From positions 128,309-192,308 of IMG/VR virus record IMGVR_UViG_3300024518_000034: DNA of 64,000 nt; one strand, given 5' to 3'. This document shows, in pieces, positions 5,413 to 42,529 of this stretch (its first letter is position 1; each line of letters opens with the position of its first letter). This DNA comes from a virus. The notes below the pieces were generated by a model that was not told where the DNA came from, did not search any database, and worked only from the letters and a program-made list of their open reading frames with translations. Position numbers and translations under genes: made by a program.

Positions 5413-6245
5413 AGATAGCATTTAAGAGGTGGTGGACTCCTTGGAATATGAATTATTTCAGAGAGAGATTTCCATTTATGACTAGTCAATACGATTTTGT
5501 TGAATCAAAGAATCCAGACTATGTAATGTATTCAGTATTTGGGAATGAGCCATTGCCTAAGAATTGCACTAAGGTTTTCTATACGGCAGAAAATGCAGCG
5601 CCAAATATGAGTGAATGCGACTATGCTATATCCTTTAGAAGAGATATAGGAGGCAAGCACTTTAGGTTACCAAATTATGCTGTGAGATACAATCATTGCA
5701 AGAATCATGATTTGATAGATTTGGTAAGAAACGACAGACCGCGAAGTCATGTGAACTTTAAAGATCGCAAGTTCTGTGTTTTCCTTCATAGAAGACCATC
5801 TGAACCAAGAGATAGTTTCGTAAAAGAGCTTTCTAAATATAAAAGAGTAGACTGTCCAGGGATAGTTCACAGAAATATGAATGTGGAAATTCCTAAGGGT
5901 GGAGACGCTAAGATTAACTTCTTTAAGCAGTACAAATTTGCAATGGCATTTGAAAATAGCAGAGGAAATGGATATGTAACGGAGAAATTAACAGATGCTA
6001 TGATGGCAGGCTGTATACCTATATATTGGGGTGATCCAGACGTAAAATTAGATTTTAATACTAGGAGTTTTATCAACGTTTTGAACTATGGTAATTTTGA
6101 TAGGGCAATTAAAAGGATTAAAAACATAGATAGTAACGATGAGGCATGTAAAAAAATATTAGCACAGCCCTGGGTAAATGAAGACTCGTGGATTTTATTA
6201 AATAATCATAAAACAGAGAAATTTTTTAGGAGAATATTCGGATGA
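5391..6245 (+). CDS. glycosyltransferase family 10 (alpha-1,3/4-fucosyltransferase-like)
   Basis: YKFAMAFENSRGNGYVTEKLTDAMMAGCIPIYWG is the GT10 alpha-1,3 motif. Confidence 0.9.
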   Translation: METKKKIKIAFKRWWTPWNMNYFRERFPFMTSQYDFVESKNPDYVMYSVFGNEPLPKNCTKVFYTAENAAPNMSECDYAISFRRDIGGKHFRLPNYAVRYNHCKNHDLIDLVRNDRPRSHVNFKDRKFCVFLHRRPSEPRDSFVKELSKYKRVDCPGIVHRNMNVEIPKGGDAKINFFKQYKFAMAFENSRGNGYVTEKLTDAMMAGCIPIYWGDPDVKLDFNTRSFINVLNYGNFDRAIKRIKNIDSNDEACKKILAQPWVNEDSWILLNNHKTEKFFRRIFG

Positions 6246-31689: not shown

Positions 31690-31736
31690 GGGGGTGACAC
31701 GGCTCGATGAAAGCAGCGTGTCACCTCCGCTTTTTT
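31690..31736 (+). terminator. intrinsic terminator after parB-like gene
   Basis: GGGGGTGACACG/CGTGTCACCTCC stem followed by T6. Confidence 0.7.
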
Positions 31737-31766
31737 ATTATAACAGTACTATTTTTGGAGGATTTT

Positions 31767-32810
31767 ATGGATAATTGGGGTGGAGTATTTGATTGTGGAG
31801 TATTGATTTCGCTACACGTTTCTCGCTGGGGAGCGAGAAAGATGATTAAGTTAGAAGATCTAGGTCTAGGAGAGAGAGACGACCAGGATCGTTTAGTAAA
31901 GTTATTTAAGTTAGGATCTAAAAGACTAATTGATCCAGCACACTTGGAAATCTTTATTAAAATAGAAGGTAAGGCCCGAAGACTTATCGCAAACCACGGA
32001 GTAACATTTCCAGTGGTTCCTACCGCATATTTCGTTTCAGACGAAAGCTTTATTGGTCTAAAAGAAAAATTAGACATTCTTCAAGAAGCGTACAATGACG
32101 CTCTAGATTTATTTATTAATTCATATGAAGACTATAGAGAAGAATGGCTAGATCAATTTTATGAGTATGCCAAAGAAGAGCTATCTCAAGGTCAAGATCC
32201 AGAAATGGTCGCCAACAAGTTTGTTTCAAAGCTATCTGGTTTCTATCCAAAAGCAGAAGATCTAAAAGAGAGATTCGGTTTTGTTTATACCACATTTACC
32301 ATTACTTCTCCTGCTAACAAGATTGACCCTAACGAATACATTGAAACTGTCAAAAGTAGAAGAGAAATTCAGAGACACTATCAAGCACAAGTTAAGCAAC
32401 AAATCGATGGGTTTTTGGAACAAACGGTTAGCGGGTTAAGAAAAGAATTGGTAGAAACATGCGAACACGTTAGTGGATTACTGATGGACGAAGGAAAGCA
32501 GTTTAATAACAGATCTCTTTCAGCTATGTGGAACAAGGTGGAGAAGTTCAGAAGACTAAACTTCGCTGGTGACAAGAGAGTCACTGATGCAATAAATGAA
32601 TTAGAAAACTACATCACTGTTGATGCTAAGAAATATAGGGACTCTAGAAAGTTTAGTAAAGAGTTTAATGACGTGTTGAGTAGTGTAGGTAGCGATCTAA
32701 GGTCTACTCTGAAAACAGAGTTAAGAGAGATAGTTACAAGTTTTGGTCATACATCTAAGAGAAAATTGAAGTTGAAAAAAAAGAAGAAGAAAGAGAGAGT
32801 TGAGGTATGA
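31767..32810 (+). CDS. DUF3150-like helical protein
   Basis: Start moved to ATG 31767 (RBS GGAGG). GVLISLHVSRWGARK, KLGSKRLIDP and YP..EDLKERF recalled as this family. Confidence 0.6.
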   Translation: MDNWGGVFDCGVLISLHVSRWGARKMIKLEDLGLGERDDQDRLVKLFKLGSKRLIDPAHLEIFIKIEGKARRLIANHGVTFPVVPTAYFVSDESFIGLKEKLDILQEAYNDALDLFINSYEDYREEWLDQFYEYAKEELSQGQDPEMVANKFVSKLSGFYPKAEDLKERFGFVYTTFTITSPANKIDPNEYIETVKSRREIQRHYQAQVKQQIDGFLEQTVSGLRKELVETCEHVSGLLMDEGKQFNNRSLSAMWNKVEKFRRLNFAGDKRVTDAINELENYITVDAKKYRDSRKFSKEFNDVLSSVGSDLRSTLKTELREIVTSFGHTSKRKLKLKKKKKKERVEV

Positions 32811-34414
32811 ATTTTAATGAGAAGCTAAATGGCTATATTAGATCTACATATCCCAGCCTATACATAGTTACGTCAGAAGAGCAGAGATGTGAAAGCGACA
32901 TCAGGTATATAATTGAGAAAGAGTTTGCTGGCGACGAAGATCAGCCTGTTATATACAGTTGGGCATTGACTAAGGGACTATTTAGAGAGTATCCTGGGAA
33001 GGAATGGATTAAGACTCACTCAGAAGACGAAGAAACTGGTCCACATGATCCAGCAGCAGTATTAGATTATTTCTACGCTCAGAAGGGTGAAGGAGATTAT
33101 ATTTTAATACTGAACGACTACCACCACTACATTAAAGACCCTTATATTTTGAGAAGACTCAAAGATCTATTTAAGGAATTTAAAGAGAAAGGAGCTATGA
33201 TAATATTCTTGTCACCAGTGTTAGAAGTTCCGGCTGACATAGAAAGAGAGGTAGTTATTGAAGAGTTTGATCTACCAGACAAGAAAGTATTAAGTGAAAG
33301 ATTGGATGTTATACTGGATGCTGTAGCTGGCGATCTAAGTATAGTAATGGATGAGGAAAAGAGAAACAGCGTTCTTGATGCAGCTTTAGGTATGACGACT
33401 GGAGAAGCTGAGAATGTATTCGCTAGATCAATCATTGAGTGCGAAGATTTAAATATTAAGACTATTATTGAACATAAAGCACAGGTTATAAAGAAAACAG
33501 GATCGTTGGAGTGGATTGATTCGAACGTGAACATGGACACAGGAGTAGGTGGACTGGACGTTCTAAAGAATTGGATTAGAAAGAGAAGTAAGGCGTTTAC
33601 TAAACAGGCTAAGGAGTTTGGACTACCAATGCCAAGAGGGGCTATGTTAGCCGGTATACCAGGCTGTGGTAAAAGTATGGCAGCTAAGGCGACAGCAGAC
33701 CTCTGGTCTATTCCACTATTAAGATGTGACATAGGATCAATCTTTGGGTCGCTAGTTGGAGAGTCAGAAGCAAATCTAAGAAAAGTTTTAGCTATTGTAG
33801 ACAGAGTGGCACCGTGTGTATTATGGTTAGATGAGATTGAGAAGGGATTTGCAGGCGCAGGCGGCTCAGGAAATTTGGATGGTGGAACAAGTAAGAGAGT
33901 ATTCGGGTCATTCCTAACTTGGATGCAAGAACGTACTACACCAGTATTCGTATTCGCTACAGCTAACGATATTAAAAGCTTGCCTCCTGAATTTCTTAGA
34001 AAGGGTGGAAGATTTGATGAGATATTCTTTATTGGTCTACCAAACAAAGTAGAACGTGAGGCGATTTGGAAGATTCATCTAAGTAAGGTTAATACCTACA
34101 AGGAAGAAGATTTCGACTTCGTAGGACTATCTGCACTAACTGAGTTTTTCTCGGGCGCTGAAATAACTTCAATTATTGACAGTGCTTTGTTTGATGCGTT
34201 CGATGAAGATGAAAGTTTGGAGATGAAGCACTTAATTGATGTTGCTAAAAATACTGTTCCCCTAAGTAAGACAATGGGAGAAGAGCTAGGAAGATTAAGA
34301 GAGTGGGGTAAGTCTCACGCCAAATTGGCATCAACTCCTGACAAATCTGGGAAGGGTGTAAAGATAACTAAGAAGCGTAAAATAAGGCACAAGAAAAGCG
34401 TAGAGAAAAATTAA
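32807..34414 (+). CDS. AAA+ ATPase, Ycf46 family
   Basis: Degenerate N-terminal AAA (LILNDYHHY), Walker A GIPGCGKS, Walker B LWLDEIEKG, SRH ATAN...LPPEFLRKGGRFD. Confidence 0.9.
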   Translation: MNFNEKLNGYIRSTYPSLYIVTSEEQRCESDIRYIIEKEFAGDEDQPVIYSWALTKGLFREYPGKEWIKTHSEDEETGPHDPAAVLDYFYAQKGEGDYILILNDYHHYIKDPYILRRLKDLFKEFKEKGAMIIFLSPVLEVPADIEREVVIEEFDLPDKKVLSERLDVILDAVAGDLSIVMDEEKRNSVLDAALGMTTGEAENVFARSIIECEDLNIKTIIEHKAQVIKKTGSLEWIDSNVNMDTGVGGLDVLKNWIRKRSKAFTKQAKEFGLPMPRGAMLAGIPGCGKSMAAKATADLWSIPLLRCDIGSIFGSLVGESEANLRKVLAIVDRVAPCVLWLDEIEKGFAGAGGSGNLDGGTSKRVFGSFLTWMQERTTPVFVFATANDIKSLPPEFLRKGGRFDEIFFIGLPNKVEREAIWKIHLSKVNTYKEEDFDFVGLSALTEFFSGAEITSIIDSALFDAFDEDESLEMKHLIDVAKNTVPLSKTMGEELGRLREWGKSHAKLASTPDKSGKGVKITKKRKIRHKKSVEKN

Positions 34415-34424
34415 GGAGGGGTAT

Positions 34425-34961
34425 ATGAGTATATTTAGAGGACAAAGGGTAGCTATTCTGGCAGATGTTCAAAACCTATATTATGCAACCGTAAGAAATG
34501 GGAAAAGGCTTAATTATTTGAAGTTAATGAATACGTTGACAAACAATAGAACGTTAGCGAAAGCAGTAGCATTTGTAGTACACAAAGAGAACGCACAAAG
34601 TCAAGAAAAGTTCTTTGATGCACTAAGATATATGGGTTGGGACTTAAATATCAAAACTCTACAAGAGAGAGAAGAAGGAACAAAAAAAGCTGACCAGGAC
34701 ATGGAGTTGGCAATGGAAGCCTTGACAATCGCTGACAATATTGATACAATAATACTAGTCAGCGGGGACTCAGACTTTATCAATTTAATCGAAAGATTGA
34801 GACATAAAGGGAAGAGAATAGAAGTGGCATCGTTTAATGCCTATACTAGTAACAAGCTAATGAAAGTGGCTGATAGATTTTATTCATTAGATGATATTGA
34901 TGGATTGGTTACTGTAGTAGAAGATGAGATCGTTTCTTCGATTGTCGGAGGAACAAAGTAA
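34425..34961 (+). CDS. NYN-domain (PIN-like, LabA/DUF88) ribonuclease
   Basis: ILADVQNLY, KKADQDMEL, LVSGDSDF, L...AD.F. Confidence 0.9.
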   Translation: MSIFRGQRVAILADVQNLYYATVRNGKRLNYLKLMNTLTNNRTLAKAVAFVVHKENAQSQEKFFDALRYMGWDLNIKTLQEREEGTKKADQDMELAMEALTIADNIDTIILVSGDSDFINLIERLRHKGKRIEVASFNAYTSNKLMKVADRFYSLDDIDGLVTVVEDEIVSSIVGGTK

Positions 34962-34967
34962 TTATTA

Positions 34968-35228
34968 TTGGAGACTGTTGCGATGTTATTTAATGTGCTA
35001 GCTGATGGAAATGTAGAATGTTTGTACACGGAAGAAATTGACTTGCCGTCAGTTGGCACGTTAAAGATTAGTCGTGCATCAAAAGTTGAATTTGATGATT
35101 ATAGTCAGGGATGGATGGTTACAATTTTGAAAACTGGAGAAACGCTTGGTCCTTATAGATCTAGAAAAGCGGCTCTTGCAGAAGAAGTAGCATTTTTGGA
35201 AGATAGAATGAGTGAATATGGCAGATAG
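34968..35228 (+). CDS. conserved small hypothetical protein of the Ycf46 module
   Basis: DGNVECLYTEEIDL...RASKVEFD...GPY.SR..ALAEEV. Confidence 0.6.
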   Translation: METVAMLFNVLADGNVECLYTEEIDLPSVGTLKISRASKVEFDDYSQGWMVTILKTGETLGPYRSRKAALAEEVAFLEDRMSEYGR

Positions 35229-35847
35229 AAAAAGTAATGCTTTTAGAAAACACAATGAACACTTTTTTAAAGAATGGAATGAAAATTCGGCTTACGTATT
35301 AGGATATCTAGAAGCAGATGGTTGGTTGGACAATAGGAATAAGGCGATTGGGGTACAGTTTGGATGTAGCATAAAAGATTATGAATATTTAACTCGTTTG
35401 AAAAATATTGTTTCACATACGGGAAAAATTTATGAAAAAGGTCAAATGGTGGGGTTTACAGTTTATAGTAGACAATGGAGAGATTCATTATTAACTAAAA
35501 GTTTTAGAAAAAGAAAGTTGCCTAAAATTCCTAGAGATTTAATACATCATTACATAAGAGGATTTTTCGATGGAGATGGCAGCGTTTATTTTTTTAATCA
35601 TCTTAAACGAGTTAGTTTAGTTTTTTACAATTTAAACTTTGCTGAAGAAGTCTTAAAGTTAATAGCAAGAGAGGTTGGATTTAGTAAAGGGATGAAGATA
35701 TATAGAAAAGAAAATACAAAAGATAGTTGGTATTTTAGAATAGCAAAGCAAGAAATAGTAGAAAAGTTTGGGAATTGGATATATAAAGATGCAAATATTT
35801 TCTTAAAAAGAAAAAGAGAAAGATTTTTAGAAAGGAGGTCTAAGTAA
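35212..35847 (+). mobile_element. free-standing LAGLIDADG homing endonuclease gene
   Basis: AYVLGYLEADG and HYIRGFFDGDGS double motifs. Confidence 0.85.
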
Positions 35848-35866
35848 AATTAGCCATACAACTGAA

Positions 35867-36277
35867 GTGAAAACAGAGTTTAAAGATATAGATTGCTTAG
35901 TAAAATCTTTAGTAGATAAAGGGTGGACTGAGAGTCAGATTCAAGTAGGAACTAAGTTGGCTTTTAAAGCATATTATGCTAGACAGAATACTGAGGTAGA
36001 TGTTCTCATTAAGAAGAAGAATCTAAAGGCAGGAAGCTATGGAGATTTGGGATTCAAGAAAGAGGACGGAAAGTATACTGTAGTTATCGATAGAGATAAT
36101 ATGAGCAGAGGTCATTATAATGAGAAATGGTTCAACGATCTCAAGCAAAGATATACTTATCATAAGATAAAGAAAGAAGCTAAAAGGAAGGGCTATAAGG
36201 TTTATGAGAAGTATATAGAAACTGATAATGGTAAGGTTCTTCAGCTTAAATTGAAAAAGGTGAGTTATGGCAGTTAA
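35867..36277 (+). CDS. DUF1257 (Ycf35-like) protein
   Basis: KTEFKDIDCLVKSL, YGDLGFKK.EDGKY.VVID, LKQRY...I..EAKRKGY. Confidence 0.75.
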   Translation: MKTEFKDIDCLVKSLVDKGWTESQIQVGTKLAFKAYYARQNTEVDVLIKKKNLKAGSYGDLGFKKEDGKYTVVIDRDNMSRGHYNEKWFNDLKQRYTYHKIKKEAKRKGYKVYEKYIETDNGKVLQLKLKKVSYGS

Positions 36278-36446
36278 GAAACGACATCAAAAGACTAAGA
36301 TAGTTTGTAATACCTGCAAACACCCAGTGAATACTAAGGGTCACGAAGACATGACAATTGCTGTAAAGCATTATATTGGCGGAAAGGCAAAAATGATTAG
36401 AGTTGCATGTCATGCGTGTGTAAAAGATGGGAGAAGGAAGCCATGA
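36267..36446 (+). CDS. small CxxC...CxxC zinc-finger protein (not in ORF track)
   Basis: 59 aa, CNTC...CHAC, overlaps both neighbours. Confidence 0.5.
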   Translation: MAVKKRHQKTKIVCNTCKHPVNTKGHEDMTIAVKHYIGGKAKMIRVACHACVKDGRRKP

Positions 36447-36640
36447 GTGAAGAAATTATAGTTAATATAGACCCTGAGGGTGGGTTTAGTATAGATGCTA
36501 AAGGATTTAAAGGAAAGACATGTACAGAGGCTACAAAGTTCCTTTCAGACCTGGGAAGCGTTAAAAATACTAACTTAAAACCAGAATATAGGCAAGCTGC
36601 TAAGCCAGTGCAGCAAAAAAATTATCTGAAGGGCGGATAA
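36443..36640 (+). CDS. DUF2997 protein
   Basis: EEIIVNIDPEG...IDAKGFKGKTC.EAT..L..LG...KPEY. Start moved to ATG 36443. Confidence 0.8.
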   Translation: MSEEIIVNIDPEGGFSIDAKGFKGKTCTEATKFLSDLGSVKNTNLKPEYRQAAKPVQQKNYLKGG

Positions 36641-36841: not shown

Positions 36842-36914
36842 AGCAGGGTGGAGGAGTGGTTTCACTCGCGGCTCTCATAAGGCCGAGACGCTGGTTCGAA
36901 TCCAGCCTCTGCTA
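36842..36914 (+). tRNA. tRNA-Met(CAT)
   Basis: Acceptor AGCAGGG/CTCTGCT, anticodon loop CTCATAA, T loop TTCGAAT, CCA not encoded. Confidence 0.8.
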
Positions 36915-36933
36915 TTATTTTAAGGAGGATAAA

Positions 36934-37422
36934 ATGACAACCAAGAAAGCGCCAGAAGAGGAAGTAAGTCATAATCAAAAACTACAAACTGTCATTAGAC
37001 ACATAAAGATAGTACAAGAAGCATGTCAGAAATTGGGAATGGCTTTAATAGATAAAGGCGACGAAGAGTTTGGTAGGAACTTAATAGCAAATAGTATGGT
37101 TCATGATAATTCTAAATTTTCTGGAATCGAATGGGACTGTTTGCACCCAGGCAAAGATAAGAAAGAGTTAGAGATGGCATTACGACAACATGTAACTACA
37201 AACATGCATCATCCAGAATATTGGGGAGGTGCAGAAAAAATGCCAGAAATTTACCTTGCAGAAATGGTCGCTGACTGGTATGCTAGATCTGTTGAGTTTG
37301 GGACAGACTTAAGAGATTGGATAAAGAATTCAGCATATGAAAGATTTGAAATCCCTCCAAAGGGAAAGTTGAGTAAGAAGATAAAAGAATTCTTAGATTT
37401 ACTTCTCGAAAAACCTTTTTGA
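36934..37422 (+). CDS. HD-like phosphohydrolase (DUF5662-like)
   Basis: RHIKIVQ, HDNSKF, HHPEYW, EMVADW. Start moved out of the tRNA to ATG 36934 (RBS AGGAGG). Confidence 0.7.
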   Translation: MTTKKAPEEEVSHNQKLQTVIRHIKIVQEACQKLGMALIDKGDEEFGRNLIANSMVHDNSKFSGIEWDCLHPGKDKKELEMALRQHVTTNMHHPEYWGGAEKMPEIYLAEMVADWYARSVEFGTDLRDWIKNSAYERFEIPPKGKLSKKIKEFLDLLLEKPF

Positions 37423-37569: not shown

Positions 37570-37640
37570 GCGCGGTTGACCGAGTGGCTAGATGATTGGT
37601 TGCAACCCTTTTTACCCCAGTTCGAATCTGGGACCGTGCT
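37570..37640 (+). tRNA. tRNA-Cys(GCA), weak anticodon stem
   Basis: Acceptor GCGCGGT/ACCGTGC, U73, loop TTGCAAC, T arm CCCAG-TTCGAAT-CTGGG. Confidence 0.75.
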
Positions 37641-37648
37641 TTATAAAA

Positions 37649-37710
37649 GCTAGATGCTGATGGAGTTACTGTCAAATGAGAAAAGAAAACTTCATTAACT
37701 ATATGCTAGC
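37649..37710 (+). ncRNA. short Y-RNA-like hairpin, twin 1
   Basis: GCTAG/CTAGC terminal stem, bulged helix, 8-bp upper stem. Homologous to 42228-42291. Confidence 0.6.
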
Positions 37711-37722
37711 ATTGAAATAAAT

Positions 37723-37847
37723 CCCGAATGTGGAATGGAGTTACAATTCTCTACGAAAGAAAAGATGTCGGTTCGATTCCGGCTCTCTCCGTTGGAGAGA
37801 TGGTGTAATGGTAACATAAAAAATACACTTCTTCCGTTTATGTTGGG
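37723..37847 (+). ncRNA. YrlA-type Y RNA (circularly permuted tRNA-like module on a long terminal stem)
   Basis: Order is T arm (37767-83), acceptor-like stem closed by GTT (37784-800), D arm (37803-17), with paired 5'/3' ends. Ro60 gene lies 1.2 kb downstream. Confidence 0.75.
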
Positions 37848-37853
37848 TAATAT

Positions 37854-37932
37854 GGTGGGTAGCTTAAGGAAAAAAGCGCAGGGCTTATATATGCCCTGAA
37901 GTTGCTGGGTGGAATGCCTGGCCCCGTCACCA
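37854..37932 (+). tRNA. atypical tRNA (Ile(TAT)-like, enlarged anticodon loop)
   Basis: D arm GCTT/AAGC, CAGGGC-TTATATAT-GCCCTG, 6-bp acceptor plus 6-bp T stem, ends ACCA. Confidence 0.55.
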
Positions 37933-38316
37933 GGGACTGAAATAGGATCGACAGGATTCAAGACAATATTAGTGGCACGTAGTAGTTGGTGGAATGGCTA
38001 CTTTAAAAATCTACTAAAAAAAGTTTTAATTGACAACAACAATGTCATTTCTCTGAGTGATCGTCGCAAGGGTCGTAAGACTCGTGCGTTCGCTCGCCTA
38101 GCTGCTTAATTAACAGCCAGAGCCTGAAGCACGGACTCCGATACGTGTGGACGGTCGTATCGGATTGTTTGAATTTCTTATTTTATAAAACTTAAAACTT
38201 AAAAATAAGTGGTGGAGGCAAATGGTTGCTTGTTACCTAATTTAACAAGACAAACGTGTAGAAGCTATATTTGATGGATTACTGGACGCGGGATGCGATG
38301 CCCGCCAGTTCCACCA
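37933..38316 (+). ncRNA. ssrA: tmRNA
   Basis: GGGACTG/CAGTTCC-ACCA with G3-U70, 5' ...GGATCGAC, T arm GCGGG/CCCGC, internal tag ORF ending LAA*. Confidence 0.93.
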
Positions 38317-38514: not shown

Positions 38515-38671
38515 GCGAGGGTGTCGGAAGACACAAGTGGACTTAACATAAAAAAGCGTTCTTTTTATAATCTGCTCATTTATTTGAGTTACATTTTAAA
38601 AAGACTTTGAAAATATTTGTAAGGTTCGAAAGAGGACTACTGCTTGGCAGGTGAAAGCCCTGTCCCTCGCC
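38515..38671 (+). ncRNA. tRNA-like/Y-like RNA upstream of groES
   Basis: Own promoter (38465-93), GCGAGGG/CCCTCGC terminal stem, T-arm-like GCAGG-TGAAAGC-CCTGT. Confidence 0.5.
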
Positions 38672-38692
38672 ACACCTTTAAAAGGAGAATAT

Positions 38693-39004
38693 ATGCCATA
38701 CGCGGTAACGGACAGTAAGTTGGAGATGCTTGACAATAAGGTGTTAGTTAAGCCAATTAAACCACTAGAGAAGACACCAGGCGGAATAATTTTGCCAGAT
38801 GTCGCACAAGAAAAAACAAGAGAAGGCGAAGTAATATCTGTTGGTCCTGGTAAGGTGCTAGAGGATGGCAGCAGAGGTGAAATGCAAGTGAAAGAGGGAG
38901 ATCATGTACTATTCGAACATTATAACACTAATGACATCTTAATTGATGGAGAAGAGTACAGAATCATGTTTGAGCCAAGTATTTTGGCTAAACTTAAAAT
39001 ATAA
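38693..39004 (+). CDS. groES: co-chaperonin GroES
   Basis: LDNKVLVKP...KTPGGIILPD.AQEK..EGEVISVGPG, VKEGDHVLF. Start at ATG 38693 (RBS AAGGAG). Confidence 0.93.
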   Translation: MPYAVTDSKLEMLDNKVLVKPIKPLEKTPGGIILPDVAQEKTREGEVISVGPGKVLEDGSRGEMQVKEGDHVLFEHYNTNDILIDGEEYRIMFEPSILAKLKI

Positions 39005-39046
39005 CCAAGTCGGCAGTAGGGCCGAATGAAGAAAGGGAGAATTATC

Positions 39047-40594
39047 ATGAATACAATCACAAAGAACGCGGCAGGCGGTGTAGCAATTCGTAAGAGCAAG
39101 GAAAACGCTCTAGCAACAATGGTGTGTACTGGCACTCAGAACGGAGCGTTCTATGCCGACGCAAGCAAGATCACTGATGTAATGAAAGCTCTAGCTCATC
39201 AGGTAAGTCCTGAAGCTCTTGCAAAGATTTTGGTCTACGGACGCAAGAAGGGGCACATGAAAGATCTGCCTGCTCTTGGTCTGGCAATTCTTGCAACCAA
39301 GGACAGCAAGCTATTTCGTAAGGTCGCACCTCACATTCTAGACAACAGCAAGATGTTGCGTAACTTCGTTAAGTATATGCGAGATGGATCAGTGGGACGT
39401 AAGTCTCTCGGTCACGCTGCAAAGAAGGCTGTACAGAGATGGTTTGATGCAAAGGATGCTAAGGGATTGTTCTATAATTCGATTGGTAACGATCCGTCAC
39501 TGGCAGACGTAATTCGTTTGGCGCATCCAAAGCCAAAAACTAAGGAAGCTGAAAATATGTTTGCTTACATTCTTGGAAGAGAATATAAGACTAACTTGCT
39601 TCCTGACAACGTGCAGGATTATGAAAGATACAAACAGTCTGATCGTCCAGGTGGACGAGCAGTTCCGAATGTTCCGTTTCAGATGTTGGACAGTCTAGGA
39701 TTGGACAAGGCTGGATGGATTCAGATTGCAGAAAGAGCAAGCTGGCAACAAACTAGAATGCTTTTGAACACTTTTGTTAGACATGGAGTATTTGAGAGTC
39801 ATGCAGGTATGGGTAAGATAATTGCAGATAGGTTGCGTAATCGTGATCTGATCGCTAAATCTAGAGTGTTTCCATATCAGTTGTTGGTAGCATTCAAGAA
39901 CGCAGAGGGTGTTCCACAAGAAGTATTGTTGGCATTGCAGGACGCTTTGGATATTGCATGTGAGAACATTCCAGAGATCGATGGAAAGGTGTACGTATTT
40001 CCTGACGTTTCAGGCTCAATGAGAAGTCCAGTGACTGGATATCGTTACGGTGGACAGAGAAGTTCGACTGTACGTTGTGTTGACGTGGCAGCATTGTTTG
40101 CAGCAGCGCTTTTGAAAAAGAACCCTGAAGCAATCGTTAGACCGTTTGATACTAAGGTGCATCGTCCTACGTTGAATCCTAGAGACAGCGTGATGACTCT
40201 TGCAGATAAGTTGGCTAGGTATGGTGGCGGTGGAACTAATTGCTCTCTTGCTATGCAGGAGTTAAATGGGGAAGTTACTAGAGATACTTCGGCAGTAATA
40301 TATATTTCAGACAGTGAGTCTTGGGCTGATATTGAAGGACGAAACAGATATTGGTATGGTGAATCTTCAACTGGTCTGATGGATGGCTGGAACGAGTTTA
40401 AGTCACGTAACCAAGAAGCTAAGTTGGTATGTATGGATATGCAGCCGTACACTACATCGCAGGCTGACGAGCATCGTAGAGATATTTTGCTAGTCGGTGG
40501 GTTCAGCGACAGAGTATTTGATGTTGTTGCTGACTACGTGAAGTATGGTGAACGTAACTGGATGGATATCATCAACCAAGAAGTTAATCTTTAA
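39047..40594 (+). CDS. rsr: Ro60/Rsr TROVE-domain RNA-binding protein with C-terminal vWA domain
   Basis: KDLPAL, MLRNFV, GRKSLG, NDPSLADVIRLAHPKP, VFPYQL, PDVSGSM, GGGTNCS, ISDSESW, GFSD. Start at ATG 39047. Confidence 0.93.
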   Translation: MNTITKNAAGGVAIRKSKENALATMVCTGTQNGAFYADASKITDVMKALAHQVSPEALAKILVYGRKKGHMKDLPALGLAILATKDSKLFRKVAPHILDNSKMLRNFVKYMRDGSVGRKSLGHAAKKAVQRWFDAKDAKGLFYNSIGNDPSLADVIRLAHPKPKTKEAENMFAYILGREYKTNLLPDNVQDYERYKQSDRPGGRAVPNVPFQMLDSLGLDKAGWIQIAERASWQQTRMLLNTFVRHGVFESHAGMGKIIADRLRNRDLIAKSRVFPYQLLVAFKNAEGVPQEVLLALQDALDIACENIPEIDGKVYVFPDVSGSMRSPVTGYRYGGQRSSTVRCVDVAALFAAALLKKNPEAIVRPFDTKVHRPTLNPRDSVMTLADKLARYGGGGTNCSLAMQELNGEVTRDTSAVIYISDSESWADIEGRNRYWYGESSTGLMDGWNEFKSRNQEAKLVCMDMQPYTTSQADEHRRDILLVGGFSDRVFDVVADYVKYGERNWMDIINQEVNL

Positions 40595-42227: not shown

Positions 42228-42291
42228 GCTAGATGCAAGTAGGAGCTACAATCCTTTAAATTGAATCCGCTTCTACAAACTATATGCTAGC
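42228..42291 (+). ncRNA. short Y-RNA-like hairpin, twin 2
   Basis: Same 5' GCTAGATGC and 3' ACTATATGCTAGC as 37649-37710. Confidence 0.6.
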
Positions 42292-42296
42292 ACTAA

Positions 42297-42367
42297 AGCC
42301 GGATGGTGTAATGGTAGCGCACGGGTCTTTGAAGCCTAGAGCGGAAGTTCGATTCTTCCTCCGGTTG
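42297..42367 (+). tRNA. tRNA-Gln(TTG)
   Basis: AGCCGGA/TCCGGTT, loop CTTTGAA, T loop TTCGATT. Confidence 0.8.
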
Positions 42368-42374
42368 TTATATT

Positions 42375-42445
42375 AGCCTAGTGATGTAATGGTAGCATAA
42401 GTGTTTCTGAGACATTTTGTGAGGGTTCGAATCCTTCCTAGGCTG
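42375..42445 (+). tRNA. tRNA-Gln(CTG)
   Basis: AGCCTAG/CTAGGCT, loop TTCTGAG, T loop TTCGAAT. Confidence 0.85.
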
Positions 42446-42529
42446 TTAGTCCTAGGCGTCATAAGGATGAAAATATATATTAATAAAGGATCGTTGAACG
42501 CGGTCCTTTTTTTATTGAAAGGTAATAAA

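What the first reader, a model, noticed from the sequence alone, without database searches (positions are those of the whole stretch)
37723..37847. Circularly permuted tRNA-like RNA (YrlA-type Y RNA) that keeps an Arg(ACG)-like anticodon hairpin
Seen, 5' to 3': stem strand CCCGAATGTGGAATGGAGT; hairpin TTCT-CTACGAA-AGAA (7-nt loop, ACG in anticodon position); T arm GTCGG-TTCGATT-CCGGC; 7-bp acceptor-like stem TCTCTCC/GGAGAGA closed by a GTT loop; TG; D arm GTGT-AATGGTA-ACAT; and a 3' strand ACTTC-TTCC-GTTTATGTTGGG that pairs back to the 5' strand. Established: T arm, closed acceptor stem, then D arm on a long terminal helix is the YrlA architecture. Inference: keeping all four tRNA arms suggests a recent permutation of a tRNA gene, either a snapshot of Y RNA origin or a tRNA mimic that can bait anticodon nucleases.
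Basis: partly seen in the sequence, partly recalled or inferred. Interest (0 to 1): 0.8.

Follow-up and report, generated by a model that had tools for sequence, protein, structure and literature searches.

The report
Phage Y RNA shaped like tRNA
This 125-base stretch is a phage gene for a YrlA-type Y RNA, a rearranged tRNA look-alike that partners the Ro60 protein encoded 1.2 kb downstream; its anticodon-like hairpin is shared by most relatives I compared, so it is not a sign of a recent rearrangement.

Summary
Window 37723-37847 (+) holds, in order, a 5' helix strand, a 4-bp hairpin with loop CUACGAA, a T arm, a closed 7-bp acceptor stem, UG, a D arm and a 3' strand that pairs back.

It lies in a phage tRNA/tmRNA island, 1.2 kb upstream of a Ro60 (TROVE plus vWA) gene on the same strand.

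Rfam's YrlA model misses it. A covariance model built from 32 homologues beside other Ro60 genes, with this sequence left out, scores it 101.6 bits (E 1e-22). All six helices covary. It is a divergent member of the YrlA Y RNA family.

The "recent permutation" reading is not supported. In 23 of 28 distinct homologues, and in actinophage YrlAs, the published "V" hairpin has three tRNA-like features:
- a 7-nt loop;
- U at loop position 2 and a purine at position 6;
- a loop end 9-10 nt before the T stem, the tRNA register. No other register shows this.

The triplets in the anticodon position differ between copies. The four-arm layout is therefore old and appears to be selected.

The likely role is as Ro60 partner RNA. 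The anticodon mimicry is inferred, and the decoy idea is untested.

The scan has noted YrlA-like RNAs beside Ro60 in many other genomes.

The parts
37723..37741 (+). 5' strand of the terminal (Ro60-binding) helix. It begins with CCCGAAUG, a variant of the YrlA motif GNCGAAN0-1G.
   Evidence: Sequence. The motif is defined in Chen 2014. Helices 1 and 2 covary. The first base is C rather than G, with a compensating G at 37847.
37742..37746 (+). UACAA junction. UACA is present in all family members compared except an ordinary tRNA that the search also picked up. It corresponds to the published conserved YUAY.
   Evidence: Chen 2014 figure 2 legend.
37747..37761 (+). Hairpin in anticodon-arm register: stem UUCU/AGAA, 7-nt loop CUACGAA, ACG at 37753-37755. 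It equals the published 'V' stem-loop.
   Evidence: The loop ends 9 nt before the T stem, with U at loop position 2 and A at position 6. The same signature is in 23 of 28 homologues and in no other register. The helix covaries (helix 3).
37762..37766 (+). Linker AAGAU, equivalent to tRNA position 43 plus a 4-nt variable loop. Its last U is position 48.
   Evidence: A15:U48 Levitt pair. In the family the pair is A:U in 12 and G:C in 7 of 25 sequences.
37767..37783 (+). T arm: 5 bp with loop UUCGAUU.
   Evidence: Rfam tRNA local alignment, helix 4, 99.5% paired.
37784..37800 (+). Acceptor-like stem: 7 bp closed by GUU (G at the discriminator position, then UU).
   Evidence: helix 5, 97% paired, all 7 pairs with changes on both sides.
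37801..37817 (+). UG (positions 8-9) and the D arm: GUGU / AAUGGUA / ACAU.
   Evidence: helix 6, 98.5% paired.
37818..37826 (+). A-rich single-stranded linker between the D arm and the 3' helix strand.
   Evidence: Homologues carry comparable A-rich tails.
37827..37847 (+). 3' strand of the terminal helix, ending UAUGUUGGG. The family consensus ending is UUGUCGcc.
39026..40594 (+). Ro60/Rsr orthologue (TROVE plus Ro60-type vWA domains), the presumed protein partner. The gene as called elsewhere gives 515 aa.
   Evidence: Pfam TROVE 30.8 bits and vWA_Ro60 40.2 bits. About 50% identity to thousands of bacterial TROVE proteins.
37649..37710 (+). Short RNA-like element that shares the terminal module (AUG..GGAGUUAC / ACUUC..UAUG plus a covarying 5-bp clamp) but has no tRNA-like part. 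It may be a YrlB-like second Y RNA.
Evidence: Checked by fold and alignment.
42228..42291 (+). Second copy of the short element, downstream of Ro60.

Best explanation
The element is the gene for a YrlA-class Y RNA of a large phage. It is probably cut out of a multi-RNA precursor that also carries tRNA-Cys, a short Y-like RNA, a degenerate tRNA and tmRNA.

Its paired 5' and 3' ends form the helix that carries the CGAAUG motif. Through this helix it docks onto the phage's own Ro60 ring protein, encoded 1.2 kb downstream.

The rest folds as a circularly permuted tRNA:
- a T arm;
- a 7-bp acceptor stem closed by a loop;
- a D arm;
- a self-contained anticodon-arm mimic, the published 'V' hairpin.

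The Ro60-binding helix leaves the structure at the D-arm/anticodon-stem hinge, at tRNA position 26/27.

By analogy with studied Y RNAs, the tRNA-shaped module presents Ro60 to, or shields it from, a host factor that recognises tRNA.

Shown here: sequence, structure, conservation, synteny with Ro60, and the anticodon register of the hairpin.

Inferred: Ro60 binding, processing, and any reading of the ACG loop by enzymes such as the A34 deaminase or anticodon nucleases.
For: Context:
- The Ro60 orthologue lies 1179 nt downstream on the same strand. This is within the 4-kb, same-strand rule of Chen 2014.

Family signatures:
- The family has CGAAUG, a 9-10 nt spacer, then YUAC. The window has a 10-nt spacer, as does the one relative checked for this that scores 60.8 bits on Rfam YrlA.
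- The outer clamp CCCGA/UUGGG, against GGCGA/UCGCC in relatives, is a compensatory change.

Homologues:
- A model made from the candidate alone finds 38 hits at E < 0.005, all full length. All are on the Ro60 strand. The hits I compared with the Ro60 coordinates lie roughly 0.1-1.5 kb from the Ro60 gene. One of the 38 is an ordinary tRNA.
- All six helices covary.
- A model built from 32 of these, without the window, scores the candidate 101.6 bits, E 1e-22.

tRNA-like tertiary signature:
- A15:U48 Levitt pair, UG at positions 8-9, and a GG in the D loop.

Hairpin register:
- 23 of 28 sequences show the anticodon-loop signature. No other register shows it (0 of 28). Shuffles average 1.2, with a maximum of 7 in 2000.
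- The top two anticodon-stem pairs (27-28 with 42-43) form in trans in 17 of 30 sequences, with several different pair types. They form in cis in 8 of 30. The window itself has 28:42 in cis but not 27:43.

Paralogous module:
- Two short RNAs flanking Ro60 share the terminal module.

Published biology:
- YrlA binds Rsr/Ro60, carries tRNA modifications and folds as an L (PMC4201824; 10.1101/312249).
- A phage Ro60 binds phage Y-like RNAs and host PNPase (PMC12135203).
Against: - Rfam RF02553 gives no hit at all on the candidate, even at E <= 10.
- The T-stem and D-stem sequences differ from the strongly conserved YrlA consensus (GCGGG.. and GCUC..GAGC).
- The first G of the published motif is C.
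- The 2-3 bp stem that joins the D-arm tail to the strand before the variable loop in most relatives is absent here.
- There are no expression, end-mapping, binding or modification data.
- No promoter or terminator consensus flanks the element.
- No close relative (above 60% Ro60 identity) with DNA covering this spot could be fetched. Conservation is therefore shown only at family level.
- The alignments used for covariation were fitted to the model's structure, which favours it.
Confidence: 0.88

Rival explanations
1. It is a working, circularly permuted tRNA-Arg(ACG) gene. RNase P would open the closed acceptor stem between 37793 and 37794. The 3' end would be trimmed and given CCA. The resulting two-piece molecule would be charged with arginine and decode CGU/CGC, much as two-piece tmRNAs arise from permuted genes.
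For: - Re-joined in tRNA order, the sequence is called a 71-nt tRNA-Arg(ACG) by ARAGORN.
- The phage has 19 tRNAs but no Arg(ACG).
- The acceptor stem has the 7 bp that RNase P prefers.
- M. smegmatis YrlA is cleaved by RNase P and receives CCA in vivo (PMC4201824).
- Four of 31 distinct homologues encode N-CCA right after the 7-bp stem (p about 0.001).
Against: - The ARAGORN call does not discriminate: 62% of constructs with a shuffled anticodon region are still called tRNA.
- Position 20 of the D loop is U. A20 is the main ArgRS identity element in bacteria (my own knowledge).
- The window encodes no CCA, and the loop is only 3 nt.
- A 17-bp helix with the Ro60 motif projects from the hinge at position 26/27. 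It is conserved with the Ro60 gene, not with codon usage.
- Triplets vary freely among homologues, and several copies occur per phage.
- The phage encodes no CCA-adding enzyme.
Confidence: 0.05
2. It is debris from a tandem tRNA duplication: the 3' three-quarters of one tRNA joined to the 5' third of the next. It would have no function and would only by chance resemble a Y RNA.
For: - The Rfam tRNA model aligns 37730-37783 to tRNA positions 10-63 at 22.9 bits, including a possible upstream D arm.
- Bases 37730-37738 and 37803-37811 share GUGNAAUGG.
- Tandem tRNAs elsewhere in this phage score weakly on YrlA-type models. The Ser/Asn pair scores 22.6 bits on RF02553. The Gln/Gln pair scores 30 bits on R2.
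Against: - The candidate scores 101.6 bits, against at most 30 bits for true tandem tRNAs.
- From reading the homologues' 5' strands, the upstream 'D arm' is not conserved. Those bases covary instead with the 3' strand as a terminal helix (helix 2).
- The flanks carry the Ro60-binding motif and recur beside Ro60 genes in dozens of unrelated contigs.
Confidence: 0.03
3. It is a YrlA Y RNA, but the hairpin is only a structural 'variable arm', as drawn in the 2014 paper. Its likeness to an anticodon loop would have no functional meaning.
For: - Chen 2014 models this hairpin as the variable arm.
- Its stem is short (2-5 bp) in most members.
- Its triplet is not conserved.
- About a fifth of family members, and the Salmonella RNA whose structure was solved, lack it altogether.
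Against: - The 7-nt loop size, U at position 2, purine at position 6 and a fixed 9-10 nt distance to the T stem are kept while the sequences diverge completely.
- A variable arm normally joins the T stem through 1-2 nt, not 4-5 (my own knowledge of class II tRNAs).
- The hairpin's 3' strand runs without a break into the two pairs that stack under the D arm. This favours coaxial stacking as an anticodon arm.
Confidence: 0.3

Closest known systems
YrlA (Y RNA-like A), Rfam RF02553; Chen et al. 2014 (PMC4201824); structure in Wang et al. 2018 (10.1101/312249)
   Same: - It is encoded within 4 kb of Ro60 on the same strand.
- It has the 5' CGAA-containing motif, the YUAY junction and a 'V' hairpin.
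- The T arm, closed acceptor-like stem and D arm come in that permuted order.
- It has the Levitt pair, and a terminal helix made by the two ends.
- The family is already known in phages: 22 in the 2014 survey.
   Different: - It is not detected by RF02553. Relatives reach at most 61.7 bits, against a cut-off of 69 bits.
- Its T-stem and D-stem sequences are different.
- The first motif base is C.
- Its acceptor stem is exactly 7 bp with a 3-nt loop.
- Its hairpin is a self-contained 4-bp anticodon-arm mimic with the loop of tRNA-Arg(ACG). The solved Salmonella RNA is described as lacking an anticodon loop.
Actinophage YrlA-like RNAs (for example beside Ro in Streptomyces phage Limpid and Mycobacterium phages Myrna and Sparky)
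   Same: - The layout is the same, and a hairpin sits in the same register.
- Limpid's copy also has a complete 5-bp hairpin in cis, a GUCGG T stem and a GUGU..GCAC D arm.
   Different: - The Ro60 proteins are only about 23% identical to this one.
- Host range and GC content differ.
- Myrna encodes A-CCA after the acceptor stem. The window does not.
Circularly permuted tRNA genes of Cyanidioschyzon merolae and some other algae and archaea (cited in 10.1101/312249)
   Same: The 3' part of the tRNA precedes the 5' part. The acceptor stem is closed by a loop, and the transcript ends pair.
   Different: Those are processed by the splicing endonuclease through a circular intermediate into ordinary tRNAs. 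Here the terminal helix is a conserved Ro60-binding module. No such endonuclease has been reported in bacteria (as stated).
Two-piece tmRNA from permuted ssrA genes (my own knowledge)
   Same: It is a bacterial example of a permuted tRNA-like gene whose product keeps a tRNA-like domain after RNase P and 3'-end processing.
   Different: It has a different function and different partners (SmpB, the ribosome). The tmRNA of this phage, at 37933-38316, is the ordinary one-piece form.

Membership tests
YrlA Y RNA | Encoded within about 4 kb of a Ro60/TROVE gene, on the same strand | tested here: met
   The Ro60 ORF is at 39026-40594 (+), 1179 nt downstream. TROVE scores 30.8 bits and vWA_Ro60 40.2 bits.
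YrlA Y RNA | GNCGAAN0-1G motif near the 5' end | tested here: met
   CCCGAAUG at 37723-37730 matches five of the six fixed bases. The first G is C, paired to G37847. That position varies in the family: GC 28, AU 5, CG 2, UA 2.
YrlA Y RNA | T arm, then closed acceptor-like stem-loop, then D arm, with tRNA-like conserved loop bases and the 15:48 Levitt pair | tested here: met
   The window has A15:U48, T loop UUCGAUU and D loop AAUGGUA.
YrlA Y RNA | Conserved YUAY followed by the 'V' stem-loop upstream of the T arm | tested here: met
   UUAC at 37741-37744 and the hairpin at 37747-37761.
YrlA Y RNA | 5' and 3' ends pair into a long terminal helix that covaries | tested here: met
   Helices 1 and 2 have 17 pairs, 16 with changes on both sides, and are 85-88% paired. 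The alignment was fitted to the model.
YrlA Y RNA | Reaches the Rfam RF02553 gathering score (69 bits) | tested here: not met
   No hit even at E <= 10. Among the 50 Ro60-bearing virus records searched, none reaches the cut-off; the best score is 61.7 bits.
YrlA Y RNA | Significant full-length match to a model of RNAs found beside Ro60 genes, built without the candidate | tested here: met
   R2 gives 101.6 bits, E 1e-22, covering model positions 1-128. R2 also hits actinophage Ro loci.
YrlA Y RNA | Bound by Ro60/Rsr in vivo and carrying tRNA modifications (pseudouridine 55, dihydrouridine) | not testable with these tools
   This needs immunoprecipitation and modification mapping.
Functional tRNA-Arg(ACG) | Open acceptor stem with a CCA end; ArgRS identity elements (A20, C35, G36) | tested here: not met
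   The acceptor stem is closed by GUU and no CCA is encoded. D-loop position 20 is U. C35 and G36 are present. The identity rule comes from my own knowledge.
Permuted tRNA gene processed through a circular intermediate | Bulge-helix-bulge motif at the junction of the paired ends, and a splicing endonuclease | not tested
   I made no search for a bulge-helix-bulge motif or for the endonuclease. No such endonuclease has been reported in bacteria (10.1101/312249).

The most novel reading that the evidence does not exclude
The published 'V' hairpin of YrlA-type Y RNAs is a true anticodon-arm mimic. On this reading these RNAs copy a whole tRNA, each copy displaying a different anticodon-like loop: ACG here, and GUU, UUU, UGA, GAU, UGG and others elsewhere, often several per phage. 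Proteins that inspect anticodon loops would read that loop. Candidates are anticodon nucleases of host defence, the A34 deaminase, or other modification enzymes. The phage Ro60-Y RNA particle would then act as a decoy, sensor or tether for such proteins.
Probability: 0.3. Interest if true: 0.65.

Novelty: new member of a known kind. Interest (0 to 1): 0.4.

Why it matters
The element itself is one more phage YrlA, a class known since 2014, so the element itself is ordinary.

The comparison adds a family-level point that I did not find in the papers I could read. Most YrlAs that carry the "V" hairpin keep a 7-nt loop with U33-like and R37-like bases, in the exact tRNA register. The top of the anticodon stem is built either in cis or in trans. 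The published structure paper describes YrlA as lacking an anticodon loop, and the effector that binds the tRNA-like module is still unknown.

If the loop is read by a protein, the search for that effector narrows to anticodon-loop binders. This would link phage Ro60 systems to the conflict over tRNA cleavage.

There is also a practical point: Rfam's current model misses this whole phage clade.

Tried and rejected
1. Rfam scans gave no YrlA hit on the candidate. The only RF02553 hit in the phage of any weight (22.6 bits, E 0.0018) is a tandem tRNA-Ser/Asn pair, a known type of false positive; a second, at 10.9 bits and E 4.2, is noise.

2. I looked for close relatives to test conservation at short range.
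- Contigs with the 91%-identical Ro60 start inside the tmRNA and miss the element.
- The 59%-identical one has no DNA available.
- Single-protein scans of the viral and metagenome collections gave nothing closer than 46%.
- Megablast against the phage collection found nothing.

3. Re-joining the parts in tRNA order gives ARAGORN tRNA calls for 51 of 56 family constructs. However, 473 of 760 constructs with a shuffled anticodon region are also called. I dropped this as evidence and used the register test instead.

4. An upstream 'first D arm' (37730-37744, from the Rfam tRNA local hit) would be a relic of a dimeric tRNA. It is not conserved in homologues (my reading). Those bases covary with the 3' strand.

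5. Minimum-free-energy folding is not significant and misses the D arm.

6. I looked for a phage RtcB or CCA-adding enzyme that would point to repair or maturation. Both are absent. One RNA-ligase-family gene lies far away.

7. The Myxococcus phage Mx1 Ro60 locus holds the closest named phage protein, at 44% identity. It has no clear copy within 5 kb.

8. The 2018 and 2020 Wolin-lab reviews could not be read. I cannot exclude that the anticodon-like nature of the V hairpin is already in print.

Full report
**What is there**

Window 37723-37847 (+) reads, 5' to 3':
- A helix strand that starts CCCGAAUG.
- The junction UUACAA.
- A hairpin, UUCU-CUACGAA-AGAA.
- The linker AAGAU.
- A T arm, GUCGG-UUCGAUU-CCGGC.
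- A 7-bp stem, UCUCUCC/GGAGAGA, closed by GUU.
- UG.
- A D arm, GUGU-AAUGGUA-ACAU.
- A 9-nt A-rich linker.
- A 3' strand that pairs back to the start.

**Context**

The window is the last 64 kb of a 192-kb virus record. The element lies in a dense RNA island between tRNA-Cys (37570-37640) and a one-piece tmRNA (37933-38316). Downstream come groES (38651-39004) and a 522-codon ORF (39026-40594). That ORF has TROVE and Ro60-type vWA domains and is about 50% identical to thousands of bacterial Ro60 proteins. The Ro60 gene is 1179 nt away on the same strand. This meets the published positional rule for YrlA genes (PMC4201824).

**Why Rfam misses it, and why it is still a YrlA**

RF02553 gives no hit on the candidate, even at E <= 10. 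Its only hit of any weight in the phage (22.6 bits) is a tandem tRNA-Ser/Asn pair. I viewed the RF02553 consensus on a related phage locus that scores 60.8 bits. The candidate shares CGAAUG, a 10-nt spacer and YUAC, followed by a hairpin, the T arm, a closed stem, the D arm and a 3' strand that pairs with the motif. The outer clamp is CCCGA/UUGGG where relatives have GGCGA/UCGCC, which is a compensatory change.

I fetched 63 viral and 21 metagenomic loci encoding Ro60 relatives at 37-49% identity. On the 50 records searched, RF02553 finds many sub-threshold copies there, the best at 61.7 bits.

A covariance model made from the candidate alone (R1) found 38 hits at E < 0.005, all full length and all on the Ro60 strand. 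One of them is an ordinary tRNA-Thr, which I excluded from the tallies. The hits I compared with the Ro60 coordinates lie roughly 0.1-1.5 kb from the Ro60 gene.

On that alignment, 91.4% of cells pair, against 41-49% when the partners are slid. 34 of 37 pairs change on both sides, and each of the six helices covaries. The caveat is that the alignment was fitted to the model.

A second model, built from 32 homologues without the window (R2), scores the candidate 101.6 bits, E 1e-22, end to end. True tandem tRNAs in the same window score at most 30 bits. R2 also hits RNAs beside the Ro genes of Streptomyces phage Limpid, Mycobacterium phages Myrna and Sparky, and Microbacterium phage Big4. Mycobacteriophages are among the phages in which YrlA was first reported. 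The 15:48 Levitt pair is A:U in 12 and G:C in 7 of 25 sequences, and A:U in the window.

**The hairpin**

Chen et al. 2014 call this the 'V' stem-loop and equate it with a variable arm. Wang et al. 2018 state that the solved Salmonella YrlA lacks an anticodon loop.

I tested each of the 28 distinct family sequences for the following pattern:
- a 7-nt loop ending 9 or 10 nt before the T stem, the distance of tRNA positions 39-48;
- at least two closing pairs;
- U at loop position 2 and a purine at position 6.

23 of 28 fit. None fits at any other register. Shuffled sequences average 1.2, with a maximum of 7 in 2000 trials. Relatedness inflates such counts, but the loops are very diverse: CUACGAA, CUGUUAA, CUUGAAA, CUUCCAC, AUACGGA, CUUUUAA, AUUGGGA and others. 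The five best actinophage hits, read by eye, show the same pattern.

In 17 of 30 sequences, the two bases after N26 behind the D arm pair with the two bases that follow the hairpin's 3' strand. This corresponds to tRNA 27-28 with 42-43. The pair types vary: CG/CG, UU/AA, CC/GG, GG/CC and AC/GU. In 8 of 30, both pairs form inside the hairpin. The window is close to this cis group: it forms 28:42 but not 27:43, giving 4 bp plus an A-A mismatch.

The simplest reading is that hairpin plus mini-helix form a 5-bp anticodon stem with a 7-nt loop. The Ro60-binding helix then branches from its 5' strand. This is an inference from topology, not from a solved structure.

The four-arm layout is not a mark of recent permutation. 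It is shared across a deep family, and its format is maintained while the sequence drifts.

The candidate's upstream 'first D arm', seen in the Rfam tRNA local hit (22.9 bits), is not conserved in the homologues I read.

Re-joining the parts gives a clean ARAGORN tRNA-Arg(ACG). That test does not discriminate, because 62% of constructs with a shuffled anticodon region are still called.

A working tRNA-Arg is unlikely for four reasons:
- The stem is closed by 3 nt with no CCA encoded.
- Position 20 is U.
- A large helix projects at position 26/27.
- Triplets vary freely among copies.

Even so, 4 of 31 distinct homologues encode N-CCA after the 7-bp stem, and M. smegmatis YrlA is opened by RNase P and receives CCA. 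Opening of the stem in some members is therefore plausible.

**Likely mechanism**

By analogy with studied systems, the RNA binds phage Ro60 through the terminal helix. Its tRNA-shaped module engages a tRNA-recognising factor. The analogous systems are:
- Rsr-YrlA (PMC4201824);
- the Ro60-Y RNA-PNPase machine;
- a Thermus phage Ro60 that binds phage Y-like RNAs and host PNPase (PMC12135203).

Two short RNAs at 37649-37710 and 42228-42291 share the terminal module but not the tRNA part. They resemble the YrlB partner of YrlA. This supports the terminal helix as the common Ro60 handle.

Whether the ACG loop is read by a deaminase or by anticodon nucleases is untested. Hughes et al. 2020 already suggested YrlA as a competitive inhibitor of an anticodon nuclease. 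The phage has no RtcB or CCA-adding enzyme.

**Verdict**

This is a real, conserved RNA gene and a divergent new member of the known YrlA family. The family-wide anticodon register of the 'V' hairpin is the one point that may be new. I could not read two reviews that might already mention it. Earlier notes of this scan record many YrlA-like RNAs beside Ro60 in other genomes.

Noticed in passing
window 37649-37710 and 42228-42291: Two RNA-like elements of 62-64 nt flank the Ro60 gene. They share the candidate's terminal module (AUG..GGAG(U/C)UAC / CUUC..UAUG and a covarying 5-bp clamp) but lack the T, acceptor and D arms. They may be YrlB-like minimal Y RNAs. The second has a 7-nt-loop hairpin right after CUACA.
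   Followed up: partly
window 37853-37929: A degenerate tRNA-like sequence (Rfam tRNA 18.5 bits, below threshold) with an enlarged anticodon loop lies between the candidate and base 1 of the tmRNA.
   Followed up: no
window 37933-38316: A one-piece phage tmRNA (Rfam 86.7 bits) with an unusually long tag, DNNNVISLSDRRKGRKTRAFARLAA.
   Followed up: no
window 42297-42446: A tandem tRNA-Gln(UUG)/tRNA-Gln(CUG) pair sits 6 nt apart. Their D arms (UG-GUGU/AUGU-AAUGGUA-GC..) are almost the same as the candidate's D arm. The pair scores 30 bits on the family model, the kind of dimeric tRNA from which YrlAs are proposed to have arisen.
   Followed up: partly
L054:5717-6126; L036:2954-3349; L030:3532-3659 and 5590-5714; L023:3059-3490: Related phages carry two or three YrlA copies beside Ro60, each with a different triplet in the anticodon-like loop. 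One example set is ACG, GUU and UGA.
   Followed up: partly
L041:2638-2764, L054:5717-5842 and 5855-5984, L073:2020-2152; L094:3743-3824 (phage Myrna): N-CCA is encoded immediately after the 7-bp acceptor-like stem, as in tRNA genes that encode CCA. This hints that these members are opened and end in CCA.
   Followed up: partly
L097:1071-1185 (Microbacterium phage Big4): A feature annotated as tRNA-Ser(cga) overlaps a full-length YrlA-type hit (48.8 bits). This is a possible misannotation of a Y RNA as a tRNA.
   Followed up: no
window 31707-36640: A run of DUF3150, an AAA+ ATPase, an NYN nuclease, a LAGLIDADG endonuclease, DUF1257 and DUF2997 genes lies just upstream of the RNA island, preceded by a ParB-like gene.
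   Followed up: no
window 36842-37422: The longest ORF for the DUF5662 protein (36856-37422) overlaps tRNA-Met (36842-36914). The gene called on an identical contig gives 162 aa rather than 188, so the true start is probably further downstream.
   Followed up: no
G000:C1:16078-16557 (-), outside the window: An RNA_ligase-family (PF09414) gene. It is the only RNA-repair-type enzyme found in the phage; RtcB and a CCA-adding enzyme are absent.
   Followed up: no
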